Part shown: piece after piece, positions 42,001-45,000 of the stretch | How the letters are laid out: each line of letters begins with the position of its first letter | Position numbering within the stretch: the stretch's first letter is position 1 | Assembly (NCBI GenBank): GCA_035221665.1 | Contig: CM069145.1 | Span: forward strand, 41,044,001-41,108,000 | Origin: Okamejei kenojei | Lineage: Eukaryota | Direction: 5' to 3' | Length of the DNA stretch: 64,000 bases | Program-made: the position numbers

Positions 42001-45000
42001 TCACCCCGTACACTAGCACTATCCTACACACTAGGGACAATTTACAGAAGCCAACCTACCAATCTGTATGGCTGTGGAGGAAACCAGAGAACCCGGAAAA
42101 AATCCACGTGGACAAACTCCGTACAGACAGCTCCCGTAGTCGGGATCGAACTCGGGTGTCTGGCGCTGTGAGGCAGCAACTCCACCGCTGCGCCACTGTG
42201 CTGCCCCCTGCAGGAAGGATGTTTATCACGGGGACGCGTGGCTTCGCTGCCCTGCGCTAGCCCTCCTCCCACCACAGGGGAACACATTCACAGTACTGTG
42301 TGTGTGTGCTTCTGCTCCCTCGAGTACAGGAACGATGTAATGAAAGGACAATAAAGTGCTTGGGTAACTCAGCGGGTCAGGCAGCATCTCTGATAGATGA
42401 CATTTTGGGTTGGCGCCCTTCTTTGGACTCTTCCGTCCCGACTCGAAACGTCACCTATCCATGTCCTCCTGAGATGCTGCCTGACCCGCTGAGTTTTAAC
42501 TGTTTCTACATCTTCCCATCTGGCAGCTCATCCAGGTACGGACTACCCTCAGACTTAAAAAGTTGCCCCAAACCCCACCGAAATCTCTCCCCTCTCGCCG
42601 TAAGCTTATGGCCTCTAGTTTTAGAATCCTCTACCCTGCGGAAAGTGACTGTGAGCGTTCACTTTCTCCATGCCCCTCGTGTTCTTGTACACCTCAATGA
42701 GGTCACCCTTCAGGGGTGGCACAGGAGTACAGTGTTTTCACTTCTCTGTCTCTTGCCTGATGGGGGAGGGGAGAAGAGAAGTGACTGGGGTGAGATGGTC
42801 CTTGATTCTGCCTCTGTCCAAGCCGAGGCAGCATGAAGTGCGGATGGGGGGGCATCTTGGACGCTGTGGGCAAGTTTGGATGGAGGGCCTGTTTCCGTGC
42901 TGTAATACTGACCCTCTTTCTTTCTCTCACACATAGATGGCCACCGCAGCTCCCACCATCTCGTTCCGAGAAAGGGCTTTCCACAAGTCCATCATTTACC
43001 TCTGGGTTCTCTGCAGGTCAGCGCTCTCCTCCTGATGTCCACCTCGCATTGCGGGATCTCAGCACAAAGTTGTAGCCATCTTTGAGTAAGAGCCATGACT
43101 TGCAATGAGCCAAGATCTTCACAGCAACTATACTAAAATTGGAACAACGCAGAGAAGATCAGCACGGCCCTTGCTCAAGGATAATACACCGATTTGTGAA
43201 GTGTTCCATGTTTTTAAGAGTGCAGAGTAGATATACAAGGATGTTCCCGGGACTTGAGGGTCTGAGATACAGGGCAAGGTTGGAACACAAGAGGCTTATA
43301 GAGATGTATCTTATAGAGGTGTATAATAGCATGAGGGGAATAGGGTAAATGCACAGAATCTTTTACCCAGAGTTGAAGAATCAAGAACCAGAGGACATAG
43401 GTTTAACATGAGAGGGCAAAGATTTAATAGGGATAACTTTTTCACTCAGATGGTGGCCAGCACGTGGAACAAGCTGCCAAAATAGCATTTAATGGACATT
43501 TGGACAGGGACATGGACATGGACAAGAAAGGTTTAGTGGGATGTGGGCCAAGCACAGGCAGGTGGGACTAATGTAGATGTGGCATCTTGGTCAGCATGGA
43601 CGAGTTGGGCTGAAGGGCCTGTTTCCGTGCTGTATGACTGCGGTGTAGGGCGGGATGTTTGCAGGATCTGATCAGGTGCCGCATGAGTGCAGATGTCCAT
43701 CCATCATGTGAGCTCCATCCAAGACCGCAAGAAAATGCAGAGAATTGTGGACGCAGCCCAGACCATAAAAAAACCCAACCTCCCTTCCATTGACTCTGTC
43801 TACACCAGGCTGCCTCAACAAGGCCACCAGCATAATCAAGGACCCGTCTCGTCGCGGTCACTCCCTTTTCTCCCCTCCCCCATCAGGCAAGAGGTGCAGT
43901 AGTGTGAAAACCCACACTTCCAGATTCAGGGACAGTTTCTTCCCAGCTGTTATTAGGCAACTGAACCATCCTATCACCAACAACTAGAGAGCGGTCCTGA
44001 ACCATATACATCATCGGAGACCCTCAGACTATCTTTATCTGACATCACTGGACCATCTTGCATTATATTCCCTTTATCCTGTATATGTACACTAGTTAGC
44101 TCAGTTGTAATCATGTATAGTTCTGAAGTTCATGTTCATAAGTGAAAGGAGCAGAATTAGGCCATTCAATTGTGGCTGATCTATCTTTACCTCTCAACCC
44201 CGTTCTCCTGGCTTCTCTCGACACCCGTACTAATCAAGAATCTTTGCCTTCAAAATATCCATTAATTATAAAAAAATGAAATTTATCCATTGACCATATA
44301 CATATTGTCTTTCTGCTGACTGGATAGCAGACAACAAAAAGCTTTTCACTGTACCGCAGTACACGTGACAATAATAAGTTAAACTAAGTTGAGATCTCCC
44401 TCACCCCACCCTTGTCCGCAGCTCCGGAGACCCTGGGTGCTTGAGTGGGCTTTGTTTGGCGGTGCCGTTAATGCATCCCCCTCTCTCTCTCCCGCTAGCT
44501 CGGTGGCTCTGGCCCTCAGCGGCCTCACTCTGTGGCACATGGTACTTATCTTGTGTGGGGAGACCAGTATCGAGAGGCACATCAACAAGAAGGAACGGCA
44601 GAGACAGCAGCAGAAGGGCCGGGTAAGTTCTGTCCTGTCCCGTTTCGGGACATAATGACAATAGTCGCTGAAGTTTAGAAGGATGAGGGGGAAGGGGGGG
44701 ATCTCACTGAAAGTTACCGAACAGTGAAAGGCCTGGATAGAGTGGATGTGGAAATGATGTTTCCTCTAGTGGGAGAGTCTATGGCCAGAGGCCAGAGGCC
44801 ACAGCCTCAGAATGAAAGGATGTACCTTTAGAAAGGAGATGAGGAGGAATTCCTTCAGACAGAGGATGGTGAGCCTGTGGAATTCATTGCCACAGACAGC
44901 TGTGGAAGCCAAGTCATTGGATATTTTAAGGTGTAGATTGACAGAATCTTGATTAGTAAGGGTGTCAGAGGGTATGGGATGAAGACAGGAGAATGGGGTT

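What the first reader, a model, noticed from the sequence alone, without database searches (positions are those of the whole stretch)
43117..43640. U6 snRNA-CR1 LINE chimeric retrocopy inside ZDHHC16
Seen: a near full-length U6 copy ending in its own oligo-T (43211-43215) is joined with no spacer and in the same orientation to a 5'-truncated CR1, which runs from the RT C-terminus to the 3' tail. Known: U6/L1 chimeras in mammals have exactly this architecture, arising by RNA ligation or template switching during retrotransposition, and I recall similar fusions with L2 and RTE elements. Inference: CR1 machinery in a cartilaginous fish also makes U6 chimeras. If repeated with the same junction, this could be a U6-headed SINE-like family. 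I know of no description for chondrichthyan CR1.
Basis: partly seen in the sequence, partly recalled or inferred. Interest (0 to 1): 0.72.

Follow-up and report, generated by a model that had tools for sequence, protein, structure and literature searches.

The report
Old U6–CR1 chimeric retrocopy in skate
A decayed copy of the U6 spliceosomal RNA is fused head-to-tail to the 3' end of a CR1-type jumping element inside an intron of a skate-like ZDHHC16 gene; this is most likely a by-product of CR1 copying, of a kind already known for other jumping-element families.

Summary
Rfam finds one U6 at 43112-43215 (+), 75 bits against a cut-off of 44. It ends in TTTTT (43211-43215). With no spacer, 43216 starts the last ~136 codons, the stop (43569-43571) and the 3' tail (to ~43640-43646) of a CR1-type LINE in the same orientation. 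The host is a ZDHHC16/16B-like gene closest to little skate. The fusion lies in sense, about 95 nt after exon 42940-43017.

Best reading: one CR1-driven retrotransposition of a U6-CR1 hybrid, made by RNA ligation or template switching, now old. U6 is ~15-22% diverged and CR1 ~12-22%, not distinguishable. Chance abutment is about 0.0002-0.002 per U6 copy.

It is not proven. No target-site duplication was found, and neither an orthologous site nor the genome could be searched. A U6-headed SINE family is unlikely, because the T5 Pol III stop sits between head and body.

U6 chimeras with L1, L2 and RTE are published; the one CR1-like case (turkey) was left inconclusive (Doucet 2015). I file this as a new member of a known kind, of modest interest.

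The parts
43112..43215 (+). U6 snRNA pseudogene (retrocopy). Recognisable homology runs from about 43117, and the first ~7 nt of U6 are missing or unrecognisable. The ACAGAGA-box equivalent at 43149-43155 has G at its first position.
   Evidence: Rfam RF00026, 75 bits vs gathering 44, E 3.7e-17, model 1-105. 9 of 59 upper-case consensus positions and 19 of 88 positions after the 5' stem differ (my hand count on the alignment printed).
43211..43215 (+). Five-T run: the natural 3' end of U6 (Pol III terminator or mature oligo-U) and the junction point.
   Evidence: Sequence. It matches model positions 101-105. The major form of U6 ends in five U with a 2',3'-cyclic phosphate, and genomic U6/L1 chimeras carry 5-7 T (Moldovan 2019, passages).
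43216..43571 (+). 5'-truncated CR1-type ORF2 remnant: the last ~136 codons up to the family stop codon at 43569-43571. It is broken by a stop at 43346-43348, at least two frameshifts, and a 15-nt tandem duplication (43295-43309 / 43310-43324). About 28 nt are missing after 43284 and about 25 nt near 43482, relative to sister copies.
   Evidence: Translations. tblastn to P0013 residues 831-929 of 966 and to P0011 residues 238-357 with a shared ORF end. Alignment with window copies. No Pfam family for these two ORFs.
43572..43646 (+). CR1-type 3' UTR and tail, with a short GC hairpin at about 43606-43621. The 3' end lies between 43640 and 43646.
   Evidence: Tail conserved among 12 aligned window copies; 24 tails inspected. 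The hairpin is present in the predicted fold, but its energy is not better than shuffles (z -0.52; 51 of 200 shuffles fold as well).
42940..43017 (+). Context: the ZDHHC16-like exon directly upstream. The fusion starts about 95-100 nt after its 5' splice site.
   Evidence: tblastn of the named stingray ZDHHC16B-like protein P0021, residues 230-254.
44499..44624 (+). Context: the next ZDHHC16-like exon downstream. The fusion therefore lies in this intron, in sense orientation.
   Evidence: tblastn of P0019 and P0021.

Best explanation
This is a dead U6/CR1 chimeric retropseudogene made in one retrotransposition event.

Proposed mechanism. A CR1-type LINE RNA broke, or was cut, about 136 codons before the end of ORF2. 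It became joined at its 5' end to the 3' oligo-U end of a U6 snRNA. The join arose in one of two ways. Either an RtcB-type RNA ligase joined the U6 2',3'-cyclic phosphate to a 5'-OH on the CR1 RNA before reverse transcription. Or the CR1 reverse transcriptase jumped from the end of the CR1 template onto the 3' end of U6.

The CR1 protein recognised its own 3' tail and primed at a nick in an intron of ZDHHC16. It copied the CR1 part, then U6, stopping about 7 nt short of the U6 5' end. The insert has since decayed neutrally.

Shown: the anatomy, the precise junction, the family membership of both halves, the similar decay, and the intronic position. Inferred: that both halves arrived together, which enzyme made the join, and the absence of any function.
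For: 1. U6 is real and nearly complete, and it ends at its natural T5.
2. CR1 homology starts at 43216, directly after the T5, in the same orientation. A longer sister copy (54453-55192) reads straight through this point, so it is a truncation point and not a natural CR1 start.
3. The CR1 part reaches the family's stop codon and 3' tail, the part a stringent LINE needs for priming (the stringency argument is from Doucet 2015, passages, and from PMC8665684, passages).
4. There is no poly(A) after U6 and no CR1 sequence upstream of U6. blastn of 42600-43116 found no CR1-type match between 42911 and 43116, and tblastn found none. So U6 was not inserted into a CR1.
5. Decay is alike in the two halves. 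U6 differs at 9 of 59 positions (15%) or 19 of 88 (22%). CR1 differs at 13 of 106 (12%) and 61 of 283 (22%) against leave-one-out majorities. Fisher P ranges from 0.12 to 1.0.
6. Chance abutment is about 0.0002-0.002 per U6 copy.
7. The same architecture is documented for L1, L2 and RTE. In the L2 chimeras of platypus U6 is usually 5'-truncated and TSDs are tiny or absent. The five-T junction fits mature U6.
Against: No target-site duplication encloses the unit. The best flank match is 7 of 8 (43111-43118 against 43662-43669), and 126 of 300 shuffles do as well.

This is a single example, picked out by a scan. If the genome held hundreds of independently made U6 pseudogenes, about one chance abutment would be expected.

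The divergence estimates are rough. The CR1 reference is a majority of only 7-11 heterogeneous window copies. On the 3' tail alone the CR1 looks somewhat younger than U6 (12% against 22%, P 0.12).

Assignment to the CR1 clade rather than L2 rests on relatives and hallmarks, not on an RT phylogeny.

No orthologous or empty site was examined.
Confidence: 0.75

Rival explanations
1. Coincidence of two independent events. Either a 5'-truncated CR1 happened to integrate with its 5' end exactly at the T-run of an older U6 pseudogene or decayed U6 gene, or the reverse order occurred.
For: No common TSD. The CR1 tail looks slightly less diverged than U6 (13 of 106 against 19 of 88, P 0.12). The window is crowded with CR1-type pieces: 21 coding fragments by my grouping of the 41 tblastn rows, plus roughly 20 further tail-only pieces. 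Elsewhere in the window a CR1 tail abuts another CR1 fragment with no spacer (53369|53370). The finding was selected by a scan, so a look-elsewhere effect applies.
Against: Expected frequency is only about 0.0002-0.002 per U6 copy. A lone U6 retrocopy needs a relaxed, L1-like mobiliser and would carry poly(A) or be 3'-truncated (Doucet 2015). Here U6 ends at its natural T5 with no A-tail. A real U6 gene here would have its upstream control region over a coding exon, which ends 95 nt upstream.
Confidence: 0.15
2. A copy of a mobile, U6-headed, CR1-tailed non-autonomous family (SINE-like, in the manner of the SINEU elements with U1/U2 heads).
For: snRNA-headed SINEs exist (SINEU with U1/U2 heads; Kojima 2015, passages; that they carry CR1-type tails is my recollection). 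The window is rich in short elements that share CR1-type tails.
Against: Only one U6 was found in 64 kb, even at E<=1, and the U6 part has no second copy. An intact T5 lies between head and body and would stop Pol III (sequence, plus established knowledge). Vertebrate snRNA promoters lie upstream of the gene (Kojima 2015 introduction), so a retrocopy carries none. The body is 355 nt of ORF2 coding sequence colinear with the LINE, not a short SINE tail.
Confidence: 0.06
3. A functional or variant U6 gene that merely lies next to a CR1 fragment.
For: The Rfam score is well above gathering.
Against: The 5' stem-loop does not pair, and the first positions are lost. 9 of 59 deeply conserved positions are changed, including the first base of the ACAGAGA box. 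No TATA-like element is visible at about -30 (my reading). A coding exon lies 95 nt upstream.
Confidence: 0.02

Closest known systems
U6/L1 chimeric pseudogenes of mammals (Buzdin 2002, seen only as a reference entry; Doucet 2015, passages; Moldovan 2019, passages)
   Same: U6 ends in its natural oligo-T and is joined directly, in sense, to a variably 5'-truncated LINE that runs to its own 3' end.
   Different: The partner here is a CR1-type LINE without poly(A). U6 lacks about 7 nt at its 5' end, whereas mammalian copies are typically full length. There is no 6-19 bp TSD.
U6-L2 and U6-RTE chimeras of platypus and Anolis (Doucet 2015, passages)
   Same: They are made by stringent LINEs that need their own 3' tail. 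In the L2 chimeras of platypus U6 is usually 5'-truncated, and TSDs are small (1-9 bp) or absent. The lizard cases are U6-LINE chimeras of the same kind with L1-, L2- and RTE-clade partners.
   Different: A different LINE clade (CR1-type) and a different host lineage (cartilaginous fish). The LINE part is longer (about 425 nt), against the 'short L2 sequence' reported in platypus.
Turkey U6-CR1-like copy (Doucet 2015, passage)
   Same: A 5'-truncated U6 next to a CR1-like element.
   Different: The authors could not conclude on its structure because of an assembly gap inside the CR1. Here the whole unit is sequenced without N.
SINEU families (Kojima 2015, PMC4494074, passages)
   Same: An snRNA-derived 5' part. 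That SINEU tails are CR1-type is my recollection, not something I saw in the passages.
   Different: SINEU are multi-copy families with U1/U2 heads, shared internal deletions and master copies. This is a single copy with a U6 head, an intact terminator and LINE coding sequence.

Membership tests
U6/LINE chimeric retropseudogene | The 5' part derives from U6 snRNA and ends at the natural oligo-U 3' end. | tested here: met
   RF00026, 75 bits, model 1-105, with TTTTT at 43211-43215.
U6/LINE chimeric retropseudogene | Direct sense fusion to a 5'-truncated LINE that extends to the LINE 3' terminus. | tested here: met
   CR1 homology runs from 43216 to the shared stop (43569-43571) and the tail. 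A sister copy reads through the breakpoint.
U6/LINE chimeric retropseudogene | One target-site duplication encloses both parts. | tested here: inconclusive
   The best flank match is 7 of 8, equalled in 126 of 300 shuffles. Stringent LINEs often leave 0-9 bp TSDs, and the copy is 15-20% decayed.
U6/LINE chimeric retropseudogene | No U6 promoter upstream, i.e. a retrocopy and not a gene. | tested here: inconclusive
   No TATA-like element at about -30 by eye, and a coding exon ends 95 nt upstream. An old promoter could have decayed beyond recognition.
U6/LINE chimeric retropseudogene | Both parts present or absent together at orthologous sites; recurrence at variable LINE positions genome-wide. 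| not testable with these tools
CR1-clade LINE (for the 3' part) | Belongs to a family whose full-length ORF2 has an AP-endonuclease and an RT. | tested here: met
   Relative P0013 (966 aa) carries PF03372/PF14529 and PF00078. The fragment maps to its residues 831-929.
CR1-clade LINE (for the 3' part) | A 3' UTR hairpin followed by a short (octamer) microsatellite. | tested here: inconclusive
   A small GC hairpin is predicted, but its energy is not better than shuffles. No clear repeat follows the tail in this copy. A related CR1-type copy in the window ends in three units of TTTCTATG (53345-53369), which is 7 of 8 like the amniote CR1 octamer quoted in PMC8665684.
CR1-clade LINE (for the 3' part) | RT phylogeny places the family in CR1 rather than L2. 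| not tested
   No labelled reference RT sequences were available. The fragment itself has no RT domain. Support is indirect: a turtle relative, P0017, and my recollection of the chicken CR1 ORF2 C-terminus.
SINE (U6-headed) | Many copies share one head/body junction. | not testable with these tools
   Only 64 kb could be searched. It holds one U6 and no second copy of the U6 part.
SINE (U6-headed) | The head allows transcription of the whole unit. | tested here: not met
   An intact T5 lies between head and body and is a Pol III stop by established knowledge. snRNA promoters are upstream of the gene.

The most novel reading that the evidence does not exclude
CR1-type LINEs of cartilaginous fishes routinely capture U6. 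That would make U6-LINE chimera formation a property of all four major vertebrate LINE clades, dating back to the jawed-vertebrate ancestor. At the bold end, this copy would belong to a propagating U6-headed, CR1-tailed family with a fixed junction, the first U6-headed SINE-like element.
Probability: 0.06. Interest if true: 0.7.

Novelty: new member of a known kind. Interest (0 to 1): 0.35.

Why it matters
U6-LINE chimeras are used as markers of which LINE families were active, and as evidence that template switching or RNA ligation accompanies retrotransposition. In print they are secure for the L1, L2 and RTE clades. The one CR1-like case was left open.

A fully sequenced U6-CR1 fusion in a skate suggests that the fourth major vertebrate LINE clade does this too, and that the process existed in cartilaginous fishes. 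It also fits the rule that in genomes ruled by stringent LINEs a small RNA can be copied only if it first acquires the LINE tail.

It is a single, dead, intronic copy with no sign of function. Its value is as a pointer to a cheap genome-wide survey.

Tried and rejected
1. TSD search in the flanks: nothing above chance. A second weak repeat (ATGACT, 43096-43101 and 43634-43639) lies inside the CR1 tail motif itself and was dropped.

2. Age contrast between the halves, as a test of one event against two: not discriminating.

3. Other U6 or small-RNA heads next to CR1 pieces in the window: none. There was one U6 at E<=1 among 11 matches, the rest being sub-threshold miRNA-like or hairpin hits, and 0 tRNAs.

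4. Naming the LINE clade from protein databases. The 51-aa ORF found only 7 unnamed short proteins. The 157-aa sister-copy ORF found 8 proteins, none named as CR1. Pfam has no family for the C-terminal region.

5. A fold of the 3' UTR as a CR1 hallmark: not better than shuffles.

6. U6 inserted into a pre-existing CR1: rejected, because there is no CR1 sequence upstream of U6.

7. Literature for a described U6-CR1 or shark case: none beyond Doucet 2015. The 2025 preprint on LINE-1 recombination does not mention CR1 (0 occurrences).

8. I did not scan genome contigs for the junction. It holds only bacterial and archaeal genomes, so it cannot answer the question.

Full report
WHAT IS THERE

Rfam's covariance model for U6 (RF00026) matches 43112-43215 on the + strand. 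The score is 75.0 bits against a gathering score of 44, E 3.7e-17, and all 105 model positions are covered. It is the only match at gathering score in the window. When the threshold is relaxed to E<=1 it remains the only snRNA among 11 matches; the others are sub-threshold miRNA-like or hairpin hits.

The copy ends in TTTTT at 43211-43215. The 5' stem-loop does not pair and the first few positions do not match. Compared with the vertebrate U6 5' end as I recall it, homology starts at 43117, and the first 7 nt show 0 of 7 matches. The copy is therefore slightly 5'-truncated.

After the 5' stem, 19 of 88 positions differ from the Rfam consensus. At the upper-case, deeply conserved positions the count is 9 of 59. 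Both are my hand counts on the alignment printed. One change is the first base of the ACAGAGA box (43149).

I see no TATA-like element at about -30. A coding exon ends only 95 nt upstream. This is a pseudogene.

THE 3' PARTNER

From 43217 the + strand reads a broken ORF. By tblastn it aligns to residues 831-929 of P0013, a 966-aa protein with AP-endonuclease and RT Pfam domains. It also aligns to residues 238-357 of P0011, a named little-skate protein of 357 aa. The alignment includes the last 18 residues of P0011, so the stop at 43569-43571 is the family's ORF2 stop.

The following ~70 nt are a 3' UTR whose last ~50 nt recur across the window. blastn gave 33 HSPs including the self-match. I inspected 24 tails and aligned 12 copies.

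A longer sister copy (54453-55192) reads without interruption across the point where the finding's CR1 starts. Codon by codon, CR1 homology in the finding can be followed back to 43216, the base after the T-run. There is therefore no spacer, and both parts are on the + strand.

The CR1 remnant is badly decayed:
- a stop at 43346-43348;
- at least two frameshifts;
- a 15-nt tandem duplication (43295-43324);
- two deletions of about 25-28 nt relative to sister copies.

Pfam has no model for this C-terminal region: 0 families for both ORFs among the 72 ORFs scanned.

CR1 OR L2?

I could not run an RT phylogeny, because no labelled references were available and the fragment has no RT. The support is indirect:
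- The family's relatives include a full-length EN+RT protein and a turtle protein.
- A related CR1-type copy in the window (52182-53369) ends in three units of TTTCTATG. That is 7 of 8 like the amniote CR1 octamer quoted in PMC8665684 (passages).
- The C-terminal motifs resemble those of chicken CR1 as I recall them.

The small GC hairpin in the finding's own 3' UTR is predicted but is not better than shuffles (z -0.52). I call the element CR1-type, with the clade not formally proven.

CONTEXT

Exon-by-exon tblastn with two named proteins places a ZDHHC16/16B-like gene on the + strand. The proteins are P0019 (little skate) and P0021 (Atlantic stingray). Identity to the skate protein is 78-100% per aligned piece, and 95-100% over the first three exons (family confirmed).

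The fusion lies in sense in the intron between exon 42940-43017 and exon 44499-44624.

ONE EVENT OR TWO?

For one event:
- The junction is precise and in the same orientation.
- U6 ends at its natural five-T end. Mature U6 ends in five U with a cyclic phosphate, and genomic U6/L1 chimeras carry 5-7 T (Moldovan 2019, passages).
- There is no A-tail after U6.
- There is no CR1 sequence upstream of U6, so U6 did not land inside a CR1.
- The CR1 part keeps the 3' terminus that a stringent LINE must recognise.
- Decay is similar in both halves. The CR1 part differs from leave-one-out majorities at 13 of 106 sites (tail alignment) and 61 of 283 sites (coding alignment). U6 differs at 9 of 59 or 19 of 88. 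Fisher P ranges from 0.12 to 1.0.
- With 14-30 CR1-type 5' ends on the + strand per 64 kb (my grouping), abutment within 1-5 nt is expected for 0.0002-0.002 of randomly placed U6 copies.

Against one event:
- No target-site duplication was found. The best match is 7 of 8, between 43111-43118 and 43662-43669, and 126 of 300 shuffles do as well.
- The divergence references are crude.
- The case was picked by a scan.
- Zero-spacer abutments of repeats occur elsewhere in the window (53369|53370).

Missing or tiny TSDs and a 5'-truncated U6 are what Doucet et al. report for the L2 chimeras of platypus. The missing TSD therefore weighs little.

MECHANISM

Two routes give the same product and cannot be told apart here. 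One is RtcB-type ligation of the U6 2',3'-cyclic phosphate to a 5'-OH CR1 RNA fragment before reverse transcription (Moldovan 2019). The other is template switching of the CR1 RT from the end of its template to the U6 3' end (Doucet 2015). Either way, priming depended on the CR1 tail.

A U6-headed SINE family is unlikely:
- The T5 between head and body would stop Pol III.
- Vertebrate snRNA promoters lie upstream of the gene (Kojima 2015).
- The body is LINE coding sequence.
- The window holds no second copy.

WHAT IS KNOWN

U6 chimeras are documented with L1 (mammals, lizard), L2 (40 in platypus; lizard) and RTE (lizard). One turkey U6-CR1-like copy was left unresolved because of an assembly gap (Doucet 2015, passages).

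My library searches found no paper with the term 'U6-CR1' and no shark or ray case. The 2025 preprint on LINE-1 recombination has 0 mentions of CR1. Papers outside the held library and all supplements were not seen.

UNCHECKED

VERDICT

The most likely reading (about 0.75) is an old single-event U6-CR1 chimeric retropseudogene. It is a new member of a known kind and of modest interest.

Noticed in passing
window 52182-53644, junction at 53369|53370: A CR1-type copy with an RT ends in three units of TTTCTATG (53345-53369). With no spacer and in the same orientation, it is followed by a 5'-truncated fragment of the other CR1 tail family (53370-53644). This could be a LINE-LINE chimera of the same kind as the U6 fusion, or adjacent insertions.
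   Followed up: partly
window 42851-42936: A CR1-type 3' tail (42851-42910) ends about 8-27 nt before the 3' splice site of exon 42940-43017. The pyrimidine tract of that acceptor lies directly after the repeat.
   Followed up: no
window 42940-43017: This exon matches residues 230-254 of the stingray ZDHHC16B-like isoform P0021. It is absent from the best-matching little-skate isoform P0019, whose downstream residues read the following exons differently. This may be alternative splicing or an annotation difference.
   Followed up: no
window 41454-41573: A near-perfect palindrome or hairpin just upstream of the DHHC exon. It hits several unrelated miRNA and hairpin models on both strands, all below gathering score. 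It is possibly a MITE-like inverted repeat.
   Followed up: no
window 43687-44112 (+) and 42750-42835 (inverted): A fragment of a different LINE family's ORF2 C-terminus lies about 45 nt downstream of the fusion. A partial inverted copy lies upstream of the exon. The intron is a mosaic of old repeats.
   Followed up: partly
whole window: Two tail types share the same ~25-nt core. One ends in TGTATGACT, as in the finding. The other ends in TGTATCTCTAAA and is preceded by a different ~40 nt; it is probably a SINE or a second CR1 family. 24 tails were inspected in 64 kb, and no tRNA-like heads were detected by ARAGORN.
   Followed up: partly
proteins P0010 and P0013: Two close relatives of this vertebrate CR1-type ORF2 are filed under bacterial names (Proteus mirabilis, Carnobacterium maltaromaticum) on short contigs. 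This is probably fish DNA contaminating those assemblies.
   Followed up: no
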